Positions 8,135 through 8,860 of a DNA stretch of 64,000 nt are shown here, piece after piece. The translations under genes were made by a program, and so were the position numbers. This stretch comes from an uncultured Mycoplasmatota bacterium. GTDB taxonomy: Bacteria > Bacillota_I > Bacilli_A > RF39 > UBA660. The number at the start of each line of letters is the position of its first letter. The stretch's first letter is position 1. The stretch is from assembly GCA_900548695.1 (NCBI GenBank), contig URLC01000002.1:197545-261544 (forward strand), given 5' to 3'. The notes under the pieces were generated by a model, which was given only the letters and a program-made list of their open reading frames with translations, made no database searches and was not told the origin of the DNA.

Positions 8135-8860
8135 ATGTTTGAAAAATATGCCGATAAAATTAAATTGTTAGAACATTTTCAAAAAGAAAATATTTTAAAT
8201 GAAAATTTTCAATTATATAGTGATTCTGAAGATAAAATTAAAATATACTATGCACCTCACAATGAAATAATTAATAAAAAAGCAAAAATATTTATTGTTG
8301 GTATTACACCTGGTTGGACGCAGACAAGTATCGCATATAAAACTGCAAAAGAAGGATTGGTAAGAGGATTAAATAAAGAAAAAATACAAATTAATTGTAA
8401 AATTAATTCTAGATTTGCTGGTAGTATGAGAAAAAATATAATTGAAATGTTAGATGAATTGGATTTGAATAAGTATTTAAGTCTGAATTCGTGTGCCGAA
8501 TTGTTTGAGGAATTTAATGATTTGTTACATACAACATCCTTAATTCCATATCCAGTGTTTATTAATGGAAAAAATTATACAGGAAGTAATCCTAAAATGT
8601 TAGATAATGAAATATTAAGTTCTTATATAAAAAAATATTTTTATAATGAGGTAAATGAATTAAAAGATATTATGATTATTCCACTAGGTGTTGCTGTAGA
8701 AGAAGTTTTAAATAATATGGTTCATCAAGGAATAATAAGTACTCAACAATGTCTATTTGGATTTCCTCATCCATCAGGAGCCAATGGACATAGAAAGAAA
8801 CAATTTGAATCTAATAAAAGAGAATTAAAAGAGAAAATAAATTTATATTTTAAAAGTTAA
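8135..8860 (+). CDS. uracil-DNA glycosylase superfamily-like protein (MUG/TDG-like motifs)
   Basis: KIFIVGITPGW matches the MUG/TDG motif 1 (xxFxGINPGL). FGFPHPSGANGH matches motif 2 (NPSGLS / HPSPLS). Order and spacing are correct. Confidence 0.55.
   Translation: MFEKYADKIKLLEHFQKENILNENFQLYSDSEDKIKIYYAPHNEIINKKAKIFIVGITPGWTQTSIAYKTAKEGLVRGLNKEKIQINCKINSRFAGSMRKNIIEMLDELDLNKYLSLNSCAELFEEFNDLLHTTSLIPYPVFINGKNYTGSNPKMLDNEILSSYIKKYFYNEVNELKDIMIIPLGVAVEEVLNNMVHQGIISTQQCLFGFPHPSGANGHRKKQFESNKRELKEKINLYFKS

What the first reader, a model, noticed from the sequence alone, without database searches (positions are those of the whole stretch)
8135..8860. Orphan UDG-superfamily protein with hybrid MUG-like and UNG-like motifs in the island
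KIFIVGITPGW closely mimics the MUG/TDG family-2 motif 1 (GINPG). FGFPHPSGANGH mimics motif 2 but with a His as in family 1 (HPSPLS). Spacing is about 155 aa. A stand-alone glycosylase-like gene in an island with antibiotic-resistance and recombinase genes could be a repair enzyme or a base-modification-dependent defence/anti-defence glycosylase. This may be a UDG subfamily not yet classified.
Basis: partly seen in the sequence, partly recalled or inferred. Interest (0 to 1): 0.6.

Follow-up and report, generated by a model that had tools for sequence, protein, structure and literature searches.

The report
Unnamed SMUG-like DNA glycosylase family
This intact 241-codon gene encodes a protein with the fold and catalytic loops of uracil-DNA glycosylases, from a large, unnamed and untested family closest to SMUG1; it is neither an orphan nor part of the neighbouring recombinase island.

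Summary
The ORF (8135-8860, +) and both motifs are real, and the motifs are invariant across the family. The UDG-superfamily call holds. The AlphaFold model has pLDDT 93.7, its credible PDB matches are all UDG-superfamily enzymes, and 50 of 62 diverse relatives hit Pfam UDG.

The protein is not an orphan. It has 4,294 clusters at 90% identity, 1,553 at 50%, and copies in 570 species genomes and 27 plasmids. All annotated copies read 'hypothetical protein'. No NCBIfam model and no solved structure matches.

The 'MUG/UNG hybrid' is the family-3 (SMUG1) pattern. Only SMUG1 aligns full-length, and its two key Asn residues are Thr here (G-I-T-P-G, H-T-T-S). The motif-2 His is invariant, and no Cys is conserved, so no Fe-S cluster.

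The gene lies outside the recombinase element. That element is a 4.7-kb insertion into the 5' end of ylqF and is absent from a 96%-identical relative. In eight of eleven syntenic species the gene directly abuts ylqF or a relic of its start.

Best reading: a monofunctional, His-assisted, pyrimidine-directed DNA glycosylase of an unclassified SMUG-related family. Repair and anti-phage defence roles both remain open. Identity with the preprint enzyme Brig2 could not be tested.

The parts
8135..8860 (+). Gene for the 241-aa UDG-superfamily protein (unnamed SMUG-related family)
   Evidence: ORF. AF2 model pLDDT 93.7. UDG-only structural matches. Pfam UDG in 50/62 relatives.
8124..8129 (+). Ribosome-binding site GAGGGG, 5 nt before the ATG
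   Evidence: Read directly from the sequence.
8240..8266 (+). N-terminal segment K-I-Y-Y-A-P-H-N-E (res 36-44). It aligns with SMUG1 I-I-Y-N-P-V-E-Y.
   Evidence: Y39 55/62, A40 51/62, P41 61/62. hhalign and hmmsearch alignments.
8300..8314 (+). Motif 1, G56-I-T58-P-G60, followed by W61-x-Q63. Thr occupies the position of the water-positioning Asp/Asn of families 1-3.
   Evidence: G56, P59, G60 62/62; T58 57/62; Q63 57/62. Aligned on SMUG1 G83-M-N85-P-G87.
8408..8437 (+). Conserved S-R-F-A-G-S-M-R-K-N segment (res 92-101), a candidate DNA-backbone contact
   Evidence: F94 59/62, G96 61/62, M98 53/62, R99 60/62, N101 50/62. Aligned on SMUG1 A-R-F-W-G-F-F-R-N-L.
8522..8539 (+). Strand beta2, L-L-H132-T133-T134-S135 (the 'motif 3' region). 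T133 aligns with the base-reading N163 of SMUG1.
   Evidence: H132 50/62, T133 34/62, T134 53/62, S135 56/62. Strand 131-135 in the model. Alignment.
8573..8593 (+). Family-specific N147-Y-T-G-S-N-P153 loop
   Evidence: N147 59/62, Y148 60/62, G150 60/62, P153 60/62.
8768..8794 (+). Motif 2 loop, H212-P-S-G-A-N217-G-H219-R220. His is the predicted leaving-group stabiliser; the loop is the predicted DNA-intercalation loop.
   Evidence: H212 and S214 62/62, N217 58/62, R220 54/62. pLDDT for the residue 211-220 block drops to 74. Aligned on SMUG1 H239-P-S-P-R-N244.
8863..8905 (+). Context: relic of the original ylqF start (RBS GGAAGTGA, then ATG AAC GAA AAT AAA ACA AAT ATC AAC TGA) right after the gene. 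It marks the left junction of the inserted element.
   Evidence: Compared with the empty site in L081.
8906..13595 (+). Context, not part of the gene: a 4.7-kb integrated element. It carries a 159-aa ORF, a large serine recombinase broken by an in-frame TGA, and a 778-aa ORF with no family match. Its right end supplies a new ylqF N-terminus.
   Evidence: Absent from L081. Domains. Premature TGA, and TGA is a genuine stop in this window. Junctions.
7884..8045 (+). Context: 53-aa remnant of a RhuM-family gene immediately upstream
   Evidence: PF13310 E 1.2e-4, covering model positions 149-197 only. Full-length RhuM genes lie near the gene in 6 other loci.
7244..7864 (+). Context: XRE-type HTH protein with a membrane-spanning C-terminal half. 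It is conserved with the gene in L081.
   Evidence: Pfam HTH_3. L081 synteny.

Best explanation
The gene encodes a stand-alone, monofunctional DNA glycosylase of a large, unnamed family in the uracil-DNA-glycosylase superfamily. The family's nearest characterised relative is SMUG1 (family 3).

Proposed mechanism, inferred by homology:
- The enzyme scans DNA and flips a damaged pyrimidine into a pocket formed by the loop after strand beta1 (G-I-T-P-G-W-x-Q) and strand beta2 (L-L-H-T-T-S).
- The invariant His212 of motif 2 hydrogen-bonds the O2 carbonyl and stabilises the departing base anion, as in families 1, 3, 4 and 5.
- Water attacks C1'. It is positioned by the Thr58 hydroxyl or backbone, not by the Asp/Asn of families 1-3.
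- The P-S-G-A-N-G-H-R loop enters the duplex to fill the gap.
- The product is an abasic site that is handed to AP endonuclease.

Both Asn residues that SMUG1 uses, for catalysis (N85) and for reading the uracil face (N163), are Thr here. I therefore expect weaker or altered uracil specificity, for example uracil in single-stranded DNA, or 5-substituted, oxidised or deaminated pyrimidines.

In this organism's clade the gene sits directly upstream of ylqF-rnhB-topA. I take its most likely role to be accessory base-excision repair of the cell's own DNA.

Shown: the fold, motif placement and conservation, family size, gene context. Inferred: catalysis, substrate, biological role.
For: Fold: the AF2 model has pLDDT 93.7 and pTM 0.89, with the order beta1, motif 1, helices, beta2, beta3, beta4, motif 2, C-terminal helix. 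The top 38 Foldseek PDB hits are all UDG-superfamily enzymes: UdgX, SMUG2 (TM 0.51), SMUG1, family 4, TDG, MUG and UNG.

Sequence: Pfam UDG matches 50 of 62 relatives, best E 4.7e-9. A family profile ranks SMUG1 chains first in the whole PDB (1oe4, E 0.023), with HPSGAN on HPSPRN and GITPG on GMNPG. hhalign gives a collinear 172-column alignment with SMUG1, but only motif 1 with MUG and only motif 2 with UNG.

Conservation: G56, P59, G60, H212 and S214 are 62/62; T58 is 57/62; N217 is 58/62; R99 is 60/62. Median family pI is 8.6. dN/dS against the 96%-identical orthologue is 0.31.

Roles of the motif positions: PMC5387724.

Repair-type context:
- The gene lies directly upstream of ylqF, or of a relic of its start, in 8 of 11 syntenic loci from different species, with rnhB and topA downstream in the window, L081 and L013.
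- The 145 immediate neighbours in other genomes are mostly ordinary genes, and only 4-5 match candidate-defence models.
- The gene is absent from 50,697 phage genomes and 2.9 million viral contigs.
Against: There is no biochemical evidence for any member. All structural matches are distant (TM 0.4-0.5, 10-15% identity, E about 1e-3). The SMUG1 alignments are only marginally significant.

The residue that positions water in families 1-3 is Thr, and the base-reading Asn is missing. Activity on uracil is therefore uncertain.

Several features fit an acquired accessory or defence gene better than a housekeeping one:
- Patchy distribution, with copies on plasmids of unrelated Proteobacteria next to toxin-antitoxin, restriction-modification and integrase genes.
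- GC of 24.0% against 29-32% for ylqF, rnhB and topA.
- A RhuM remnant and an XRE regulator immediately upstream, and RhuM genes nearby in 6 other loci.
- A gene tree that conflicts with the YlqF tree: L008+L010 in 176/200 replicates against L008+L026 in 199/200.
- Frameshifted copies in L047 and L048.
Confidence: 0.45

Rival explanations
1. The chemistry is the same, but the biological target is foreign DNA. The protein would be a Brig-like anti-phage glycosylase that excises a non-canonical base from infecting phage DNA and blocks its replication with abasic sites. Candidate targets are uracil, 5-hydroxymethyluracil or a hypermodified thymidine. It could even be a member of the Brig2 family.
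For: UDG-fold enzymes without canonical catalytic residues have repeatedly turned out to be defence genes: Brig1 (PMC11078745), Brig2 (bioRxiv 10.1101/2025.10.29.685425) and Brig3. Brig2 homologues are reported mainly from Pseudomonadota (735) and Bacillota (274), in A/T-rich acquired regions. The two phyla match what I see for this family. It has plasmid copies in Vibrio, Photobacterium, Pseudomonas, Thauera and others beside TA, R-M/Vsr, integrase and nuclease genes. It is abundant in Firmicutes. The gene's GC is 5 points below the core flanks. The gene sits at an integration hotspot with a RhuM remnant and an XRE regulator. Its tree is incongruent with YlqF's. Annotated copies read 'hypothetical protein', as Brig1 homologues did.
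Against: No PADLOC model matches the protein. Known defence genes are not enriched among 145 immediate neighbours in Firmicute chromosomes. In 8 of 11 syntenic species the gene is tightly joined to the essential ylqF gene or a relic of its start. No older attL or ylqF stub lies upstream, so nothing marks it as element cargo. The protein is unusually conserved, at a mean of 69% identity where YlqF is 48%. The Brig2 sequence was not obtainable, so identity is untested.
Confidence: 0.3
2. The protein has a UDG fold but is not a conventional hydrolytic glycosylase. It might be a lesion- or uracil-binding protein, a UdgX-like enzyme that cross-links to its product, or an enzyme acting on a non-DNA substrate.
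For: Thr replaces the Asp/Asn of motif 1, and the base-reading Asn of motif 3 is absent. UdgX is the top Foldseek hit, at E 8.1e-4. Besides H212, a second His (H219, 45/62) and R220 (54/62) sit in the motif-2 loop.
Against: Families 4-6 also lack the motif-1 Asp/Asn, and families 4 and 5 rely on the motif-2 His, which is invariant here (PMC5387724). UdgX's defining features are absent: the GEQPG motif (PMC10359453), the R-loop His (PMC10776899) and, from my own knowledge, the Fe-S Cys ligands. No Cys is conserved here. From my recollection of Li et al. 2017, the Listeria SMUG1-like enzyme has Ser at the same motif-1 position and is an active single-strand uracil glycosylase.
Confidence: 0.15
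3. One reading: the gene is cargo of the island that carries the antibiotic-resistance and recombinase genes, and moves with it.
For: A Vat streptogramin acetyltransferase gene lies 1 kb upstream (NF000311, 330.7 bits against a cutoff of 300). A serine recombinase gene lies 0.9 kb downstream.
Against: In L081 (protein 96% identical) the gene, the HTH gene and the RhuM remnant are in the same place. The recombinase segment (window about 8906-13595) and the Vat segment (window 6080-7046) are both absent there. The element's left junction is the ylqF start stub, which begins 16 nt after the gene's stop codon, so the gene lies outside it. The recombinase is also a pseudogene.
Confidence: 0.03

Closest known systems
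SMUG1 (UDG family 3)
   Same: Best solved relative by sequence profile: SMUG1 chains take the top five places in the whole PDB. It is the only family that aligns full-length: N-terminal YxP segment, G-x-x-P-G motif 1, FxG..R.NL segment, beta2, and H-P-S-x-x-N motif 2. Like SMUG1, the protein combines a MUG-like motif 1 with a His-containing motif 2, has no Fe-S cluster, and is of similar size.
   Different: Both functional Asn residues are Thr: N85 aligns with T58 and N163 with T133. Motif 2 reads HPSGAN, not HPSPRN, so the R243 position is Ala. Identity is only 13-15% and TM about 0.45. No NCBIfam model matches any member.
MUG/TDG (family 2)
   Same: Motif 1 G-I-x-P-G with a preceding hydrophobic strand, and a Gly after P-S in motif 2.
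   Different: Thr replaces the catalytic Asn. Motif 2 carries an invariant His, which family 2 lacks (PMC5387724). Only 29 columns align, and the Foldseek matches are weak (E 0.02-1).
UNG (family 1)
   Same: H-P-S motif 2 with the leaving-group His.
   Different: No GQDPY motif (neither Asp nor Tyr). Only 35 columns align. Foldseek E is 0.06 or worse.
Family 4/5 UDGs and UdgX
   Same: Comparable Foldseek scores (UdgX E 8.1e-4; family 4 entry 4zbx E 2.6e-3). They share reliance on the motif-2 His without a motif-1 Asp/Asn (PMC5387724).
   Different: No conserved Cys, so no 4Fe-4S cluster. Motif 1 is GITPG, not GE(A/G/Q)PG. There is no motif-3 Asn and no R-loop. Only 1 of 62 members touches TIGR00758, at E 0.057.
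SMUG2 (Pedobacter heparinus) and the Listeria innocua SMUG1-like enzyme
   Same: SMUG2 gives the highest TM-score (0.51). From my recollection of Li et al. 2017, the Listeria enzyme is a Firmicute SMUG-like protein with a hydroxyl residue (Ser) where SMUG1 has Asn.
   Different: Identity to SMUG2 is 13-14%, and the family profile finds no SMUG2 chain by sequence. The Listeria doublet is S-S, while this family has I-T.
Brig1, Brig2 and Brig3 (UDG-fold anti-phage glycosylases)
   Same: Divergent UDG-fold, stand-alone proteins annotated as hypothetical. Brig2's reported spread across Pseudomonadota and Bacillota and its A/T-rich acquired contexts resemble this family.
   Different: Brig1 is a small, mainly actinobacterial family of 42 homologues, is closest to family 4, and depends on Y121 and E147. 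Brig3 uses an acidic catalytic residue (D127) and an N225 wedge, and is paired with the ASCH protein BapA. No Brig sequence or structure was available for comparison.

Membership tests
UDG superfamily (Pfam PF03167) | UDG fold, judged by structural matches | tested here: met
   High-confidence model. The top 38 Foldseek PDB hits are all UDG-superfamily enzymes, with probability 0.9-1.0 for the top 23.
UDG superfamily (Pfam PF03167) | Motif 1 (G-x-x-P-x) after beta1 and motif 2 ((H/N)-P-S) before the C-terminal helix | tested here: met
   G56, P59, G60, H212 and S214 are invariant in 62 sequences. Placement in the model. Aligned on SMUG1's motifs.
UDG superfamily (Pfam PF03167) | Score above Pfam's gathering threshold | tested here: inconclusive
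   The window protein scores 22.5 bits against a cutoff of 24.3. 50 of 62 relatives match at E <= 0.01, best 4.7e-9. Most 65-69% identical homologues carry a precomputed PF03167 hit.
Family 1 (UNG) | Motif A GQDPY with catalytic Asp, and motif B HPSPLS (PMC5449639 abstract) | tested here: not met
   Motif 1 is GITPG, with no Asp and no Tyr. Only the HPS part of motif B is present. hhalign aligns motif 2 only.
Family 2 (MUG/TDG) | [quoted passage not shown] | tested here: not met
   T58 is 57/62 and H212 is 62/62.
Family 3 (SMUG1) | GMNPG with catalytic Asn, HPSPRN motif 2, and a base-reading Asn in beta2 (residue roles from established SMUG1 literature; numbering checked) | tested here: not met
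   N85 aligns with T58 and N163 with T133. H, P, S and the final N of motif 2 are kept. The overall relationship is the best of all families but marginal: PDB E 0.023 and hhalign E 1.3e-3.
Families 4 and 5, and UdgX | Cys ligands of a 4Fe-4S cluster; GE(A/G/Q)PG or GLAPA motif 1; Asn in motif 3 | tested here: not met
   No conserved Cys: positions 88, 120 and 206 vary. Motif 1 is GITPG. There is no conserved Asn in beta2.
Family 6 (HDG) | No His in motif 2 (PMC5387724); matches the NCBIfam hypoxanthine-DNA glycosylase model | tested here: not met
   H212 is invariant. No member of A2 matches any NCBIfam UDG-type model, except one member touching TIGR00758 at E 0.057.
Brig1 | Sequence homology to Brig1; active-site Y121 and E147; alpha-glucosyl-hmC excision | not testable with these tools
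   No Brig1 sequence or structure was available. The reported family size (42 homologues), taxonomy (mostly Actinobacteria) and family-4-like fold differ from this family.
Brig2 | Sequence homology to Brig2 (PSI-BLAST family of more than 500 proteins); defence against phages with modified thymidine | not testable with these tools
   The stored supplement is truncated. No Brig2 sequence or accession could be recovered, and four plasmid homologue accessions were not in the stored part. The reported phylum distribution is compatible.
Known anti-phage defence systems (PADLOC 2.0) | Match to a defence-protein model | tested here: not met
   No PADLOC hit for the protein. The library dates from 2023, before the Brig enzymes were described.

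The most novel reading that the evidence does not exclude
This is a founding example of a previously unclassified UDG family that uses Thr instead of Asp/Asn in motif 1 and lacks the uracil-reading Asn. On this reading it acts as a horizontally spreading anti-phage glycosylase in gut Firmicutes and on Proteobacterial plasmids, excising uracil-derived or hypermodified thymidine bases from phage DNA. It is parked beside an integration hotspot at the 5' end of ylqF.
Probability: 0.25. Interest if true: 0.7.

Novelty: new variant of a known kind. Interest (0 to 1): 0.45.

Why it matters
The UDG superfamily is a textbook case of one fold evolving different catalytic solutions. Recently it has also become a source of anti-phage enzymes.

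This family is large, with at least 1,553 clusters at 50% identity. It is tightly conserved and common in gut Firmicutes. It carries a motif combination not described for families 1-6: G-I-T-P-G plus H-P-S-G-A-N-G-H-R, with no Fe-S cluster. NCBI's annotation pipeline leaves it as 'hypothetical protein'.

Characterising one member would add a named family with a new active-site variant. It would also decide whether thousands of genes in gut and soil bacteria are repair enzymes or immunity enzymes, and it would allow them to be annotated.

The finding does not overturn anything. The fold and the likely chemistry are familiar.

Tried and rejected
- Direct PDB sequence searches with the protein, and with a profile of close relatives, found nothing real. 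The only hits were spurious designed-PPR matches.
- The viral structure library gave only weak generic UDG matches. PHROGs gave nothing.
- Looking for source names for the homologues returned none.
- A search for a conserved partner gene found none in 81 loci. The ~220-aa genes upstream in several plasmids are unrelated to each other and to the window's HTH gene.
- 'UDG neighbours' in the Pfam neighbour scan turned out to be fragments of frameshifted copies, not a second glycosylase.
- Co-divergence with YlqF: the lack of correlation looked like strong evidence of transfer. However, the extreme pair L022/L035 is explained by an anomalously similar ylqF. I rely only on the bootstrap-supported tree conflict.
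- Hypothesis that the gene is cargo of an older ylqF-targeting element: no further ylqF stub or attL lies upstream in any of the 11 loci, so I dropped it.
- Alternative genetic code as an explanation for the split recombinase was rejected, because TGA is a genuine stop here.
- Recovering the Brig2 sequence or accessions from the preprint's supplement failed. Literature searches for the motif strings found nothing relevant.
- The promoter/terminator scan around the gene was no better than shuffled sequence for promoters. Its only terminator-like sites lie inside the HTH gene.
- NUDIX genes near the gene (about 14 of 81 loci) belong to different clusters at varying positions. I did not treat this as a partnership.
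Full report
OBSERVATION. The window holds an ORF at 8135-8860 (+), with an ATG start, a TAA stop and 241 codons. A GAGGGG ribosome-binding site lies five bases upstream. KIFIVGITPGW is residues 51-61 and FGFPHPSGANGH is residues 208-219, with 156 residues from G56 to H212. The description is accurate.

The motifs are not chance look-alikes. They are invariant in 40 close relatives. In 62 relatives reaching down to about 33% identity, G56, P59, G60, H212 and S214 are present in all 62, T58 in 57 and N217 in 58.

IS IT A UDG-SUPERFAMILY PROTEIN? Yes. Pfam's UDG model scores the window protein at 22.5 bits, just below its 24.3-bit cutoff, over nearly the whole profile. 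It also matches 50 of 62 diverse family members, best E 4.7e-9. Most homologues at 65-69% identity carry a precomputed PF03167 hit.

An AlphaFold2 model built on the family alignment is confident, with mean pLDDT 93.7 and pTM 0.89. Motif 1 follows strand 52-56, and motif 2 lies in the loop before the C-terminal helix. The only block of reduced confidence apart from the C-terminal residue is the motif-2 loop at residues 211-220 (pLDDT 74), as one would expect of a flexible DNA-intercalation loop.

The top 38 Foldseek matches in the PDB are all UDG-superfamily enzymes: UdgX, SMUG2, SMUG1, family 4, BdiUng, TDG, MUG and UNG. All are distant, with E about 1e-3, TM 0.4-0.5 and 10-15% identity.

NOT AN ORPHAN. 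The 5.8-billion-protein collection holds 4,294 clusters at 90% identity with E <= 1e-3. An exhaustive profile search of 1.84 billion representatives finds 1,553 clusters at 50% identity, of which 1,088 have E <= 1e-10. An exact-motif scan of one genome per species finds the gene in 570 species. The best 80 are all Firmicutes: Clostridium, Romboutsia, Terrisporobacter, Paraclostridium, Hathewaya, Bacillus, Mesobacillus, Paenibacillus and many gut 'Bacilli/Clostridia' MAGs.

tblastn finds the gene on 27 plasmids. These come from Paraclostridium, Bacillus and Paenibacillus, and also from Vibrio, Photobacterium, Pseudomonas, Thauera, Agrobacterium, Ralstonia and others. It is absent from 50,697 phage genomes and from 2.9 million viral contigs.

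UNNAMED AND UNCLASSIFIED. No source gives the protein a name. Every annotated plasmid copy is 'hypothetical protein'. No NCBIfam model matches the protein, and none meaningfully matches any of 62 relatives; one member touches family-4 TIGR00758 at E 0.057. PADLOC and PHROGs have nothing. No solved structure is found by sequence with the protein or with a close-relative profile.

WHICH KNOWN FAMILY IS CLOSEST? A profile of the diverse alignment, searched against all PDB sequences, ranks SMUG1 chains in the top five places. Xenopus SMUG1 (1oe4) scores E 0.023. In that alignment GFPHPSGANGHR lies on GIMHPSPRNPQANK and IVGITPG on FLGMNPG.

The SMUG1 numbering reproduces the literature positions N85, N163 and H239, and the C-terminal part agrees with the PDB alignment. 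The results were:
- SMUG1: a collinear 172-column alignment. It runs from the N-terminal IYYAP/IIYNP segment through motif 1, an FxGxMRxNL/RFWGFFRNL segment, strand beta2 (LLHTTS/FVHNLC), GKNYTG/GRNLTP and motif 2 (E 1.3e-3).
- E. coli MUG: motif 1 only, 29 columns.
- E. coli UNG: motif 2 only, 35 columns.

The protein is SMUG-like overall.

It nevertheless fails the defining residues of every family. PMC5387724 states that the third residue of motif 1 is the water-activating Asp (family 1) or water-positioning Asn (family 2). That residue is missing in families 4-6. The same paper states that the motif-2 His, important for catalysis, is absent in families 2 and 6. Here the third residue of motif 1 is Thr (57/62) and the motif-2 His is invariant.

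In the SMUG1 alignment both functional Asn residues fall on Thr: N85 on T58 and N163 on T133. No Cys is conserved, so the Fe-S cluster of families 4 and 5 and UdgX is absent.

The family signature is:
- [VI]-G-[IL]-T-P-G-[WF]-x-Q
- F-x-G-x-M-R-x-N-L
- L-x-H-T-T-S
- N-Y-[TS]-G-x-x-P
- P-L-G
- G-F-P-H-P-S-G-A-N-G-H-R

From my recollection of Li et al. 2017 (title listed as ref. 20 of PMC10776899; paper not held), the Listeria innocua 'SMUG1-like' single-strand uracil glycosylase has an S-S doublet where SMUG1 has M-N. This family has I-T there. The doublet differs, but it gives a precedent for a hydroxyl residue at that position in an active enzyme.

GENOMIC CONTEXT: THE 'ISLAND'. A metagenomic contig, L081, encodes a 96%-identical protein. 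It has the same HTH gene, small ORF and glycosylase-like gene, followed after 16 nt by ylqF (ribosome-biogenesis GTPase), then rnhB, topA, xerC, secDF and relA.

DNA alignment shows two differences from the window. Window ~8889-13595 is missing in L081. The Vat segment (window 6080-7046) is a separate difference.

The junctions are exact:
- Sixteen bases after the glycosylase-like stop codon, the window keeps the old ylqF ribosome-binding site and start as a stub at 8863-8905 (ATG AAC GAA AAT AAA ACA AAT ATC AAC TGA).
- The 4.7-kb element follows. At its right end it supplies a new GGAAGTGA ribosome-binding site, an ATG (13554) and 14 codons, fused in frame to ylqF at AAC|TGGTATCC (13596).

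The element carries a 159-aa ORF and a large serine recombinase interrupted by an in-frame TGA. TGA is a genuine stop in this window. It also carries a 778-aa ORF with no match in Pfam, NCBIfam, PADLOC or PHROGs.

The glycosylase-like gene is therefore adjacent to the recombinase element but outside it. The Vat gene is real (NF000311, 330.7 bits against a cutoff of 300), but it also lies in a different strain-variable segment.

A CONSERVED POSITION NEXT TO A HOTSPOT. In 11 of 82 loci the gene lies upstream of ylqF on the same strand. Apart from the window/L081 pair, these come from different species at about 61-85% protein identity. In five the two genes are directly adjacent; four of these show a gap of 1-25 nt and in L019 the ORFs overlap.

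In the window, L010 and L034 a ylqF start stub follows the gene and is interrupted by similar element ends...AACTG|ATTGATACC...AATTGG|TTGATTACG and ...AACTGG|TTGGTTATG. The 5' end of ylqF is thus a recurrent attachment site for one kind of integrative element, and the glycosylase-like gene is the resident upstream gene.

No second stub lies further upstream, so nothing marks the gene itself as cargo of an older element. In the other 70 loci the contexts differ and no partner gene is conserved.

The 145 immediate neighbours are mostly ordinary genes: NUDIX 5, YlqF 4, MsrAB 3, transporters and tRNA synthetases. Only 4-5 match candidate-defence models; the PDC-S05 and PDC-S23 hits most likely correspond to the RhuM genes.

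SIGNS OF HORIZONTAL MOBILITY.
- The gene's GC is 24.0%, like the HTH gene (23.7%) and the inserted element (23.2%). ylqF, rnhB and topA are at 29-32%.
- The 53-aa ORF just upstream is a remnant of a RhuM-family gene (PF13310). Intact RhuM genes lie within one to four genes of the glycosylase-like gene in six other loci.
- Among the 11 syntenic loci the protein is more conserved than YlqF, at a mean of 69% against 48% identity.
- The two trees conflict with support. YlqF groups L008 with L026 in 199/200 replicates and L034 with L022/L035 in 197/200. The glycosylase-like protein groups L008 with L010 in 176/200. I do not lean on the raw lack of correlation. The most extreme pair (L022/L035) is explained by an anomalously similar ylqF, not by the glycosylase gene.
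- On Proteobacterial plasmids the gene sits among toxin-antitoxin modules, integrases, an MvaI/BcnI-Dcm-Vsr cluster, a HIRAN protein and nucleases.
- Two loci hold frameshifted copies.
- dN/dS against the L081 orthologue is 0.31, from 10 non-synonymous and 7 synonymous changes.

HOW IT MOST LIKELY WORKS. By homology, the protein is a monofunctional DNA glycosylase. The target base is flipped into a pocket lined by the motif-1 loop and strand beta2. His212 stabilises the leaving pyrimidine through its O2 carbonyl, the role assigned to the motif-2 His in families 1 and 4 (PMC5387724). Water is positioned by Thr58 or by backbone atoms. The P-S-G-A-N-G-H-R loop enters the duplex. An abasic site results.

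The conserved Arg99 and Arg220 and a median family pI of 8.6 fit DNA binding. The replacement of both SMUG1 Asn residues predicts a substrate range shifted away from plain double-stranded uracil. What the substrate is, I cannot say. All of this paragraph is inference.

REPAIR OR DEFENCE? For repair:
- tight linkage to ylqF-rnhB-topA in one clade;
- ordinary neighbours in most Firmicute genomes;
- strong conservation;
- absence from phages.

For defence:
- patchy distribution and presence on plasmids;
- low GC;
- the hotspot position, RhuM remnant and XRE regulator;
- tree conflict;
- the recent record of divergent UDG-fold 'hypothetical proteins' proving to be anti-phage glycosylases.

That record comprises three enzymes. 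Brig1 has 42 homologues, is mostly actinobacterial and is family-4-like (PMC11078745). Brig2 acts on thymidine-modified phages and has more than 500 homologues, 735 in Pseudomonadota and 274 in Bacillota (bioRxiv 10.1101/2025.10.29.685425). Brig3 targets 5hmC, uses catalytic D127 and an N225 wedge, and has an ASCH partner.

Brig2's reported distribution resembles this family's. Its sequence could not be recovered from the truncated supplement, so identity is untested.

My estimates are about 0.45 for accessory repair, 0.30 for defence, 0.15 for a non-canonical activity, and little for the island-cargo reading.

VERDICT. This is a real, intact, conserved gene of a large uncharacterised family within the UDG superfamily. 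It is SMUG-related but fails the defining residues of families 1-6, which makes it a new variant of a known kind.

A specialist would find it a worthwhile target for one biochemical and phage-challenge study, but not a surprise. Interest 0.45.

Noticed in passing
window 8863-13598; also L010 about 1977-2030, L034 about 6717-6770, empty site L081 10729-10775: The 5' end of the essential GTPase gene ylqF is a recurrent attachment site for one kind of integrative element. The element cuts off the first ~9 codons, leaving a stub, and brings its own RBS, ATG and N-terminal codons so that ylqF stays intact. Similar left ends follow the stub in three different species.
   Followed up: yes
window 9739-10965: The element's large serine recombinase (Resolvase, Recombinase and Zn-ribbon domains) is one reading frame interrupted by a single TGA at 10009-10011. 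TGA is a true stop in this window, so the recombinase is a pseudogene and the element is probably immobilised.
   Followed up: yes
window 11125-13461: A 778-aa ORF, the largest cargo gene of the inserted element, has no match in Pfam, NCBIfam, PADLOC or PHROGs and no relative in the 82 loci held.
   Followed up: partly
window 6480-7115 (indel 6080-7046): A Vat-family streptogramin A O-acetyltransferase gene (NF000311, 330.7 bits, above its cutoff) sits in a ~1-kb segment absent from the close relative L081. A related gene occurs in L017.
   Followed up: partly
window 7884-8045; L081 9751-9921: The small ORF just upstream of the glycosylase-like gene is a decayed fragment of a RhuM-family gene (PF13310, model positions 149-197). 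Full-length RhuM genes lie 1-4 genes from the glycosylase-like gene in L003, L011, L016, L018, L030 and L047.
   Followed up: yes
L081 5537-7330: In the close relative, the variable stretch between asnA and the glycosylase-like gene holds an ASCH-domain gene and a Q_salvage (queuosine salvage) gene that the window lacks. The partner of the defence glycosylase Brig3 (BapA) is an ASCH-type protein. Here the ASCH gene lies about 4 kb away, so this may be coincidence.
   Followed up: no
window 9096-9575; L081 5941-6423; L018: The 159-aa ORF at the left end of the inserted element has a 67%-identical DNA relative in a different position in L081, and a relative in L018. No family matches it. It looks like a small mobile gene.
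   Followed up: no
L083 (Vibrio sp. THAF190c plasmid) 1375-1998, 3696-3873, 5461-5638: Copies of a ~149-178-nt repeat occur four times in tandem and then between single genes (HIRAN-domain protein, hypothetical). They lie upstream of a YoeB-type toxin-antitoxin pair and the glycosylase-like gene. This is a cassette-array-like layout, but no repeat copy directly flanks the glycosylase-like gene.
   Followed up: partly
L022 9401-10276 vs L035 11716-12594: YlqF is 95% identical between these two genomes, while the other shared genes of the loci are only 46-76% identical. This suggests recent exchange of the ylqF region itself, next to the attachment site.
   Followed up: partly
L047 2510-3154; L048 6229-6468: In two MAG loci the glycosylase-like gene is split into fragments. 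These are either frameshifted pseudogenes or assembly errors.
   Followed up: partly
L003, L021, L023, L036, L046 and 9 other loci: NUDIX hydrolase genes lie within 6 kb of the glycosylase-like gene in about 14 of 81 loci, and are directly adjacent on the same strand in 5. They belong to different clusters and sit at varying positions. This may be a mild enrichment; no control was computed.
   Followed up: partly
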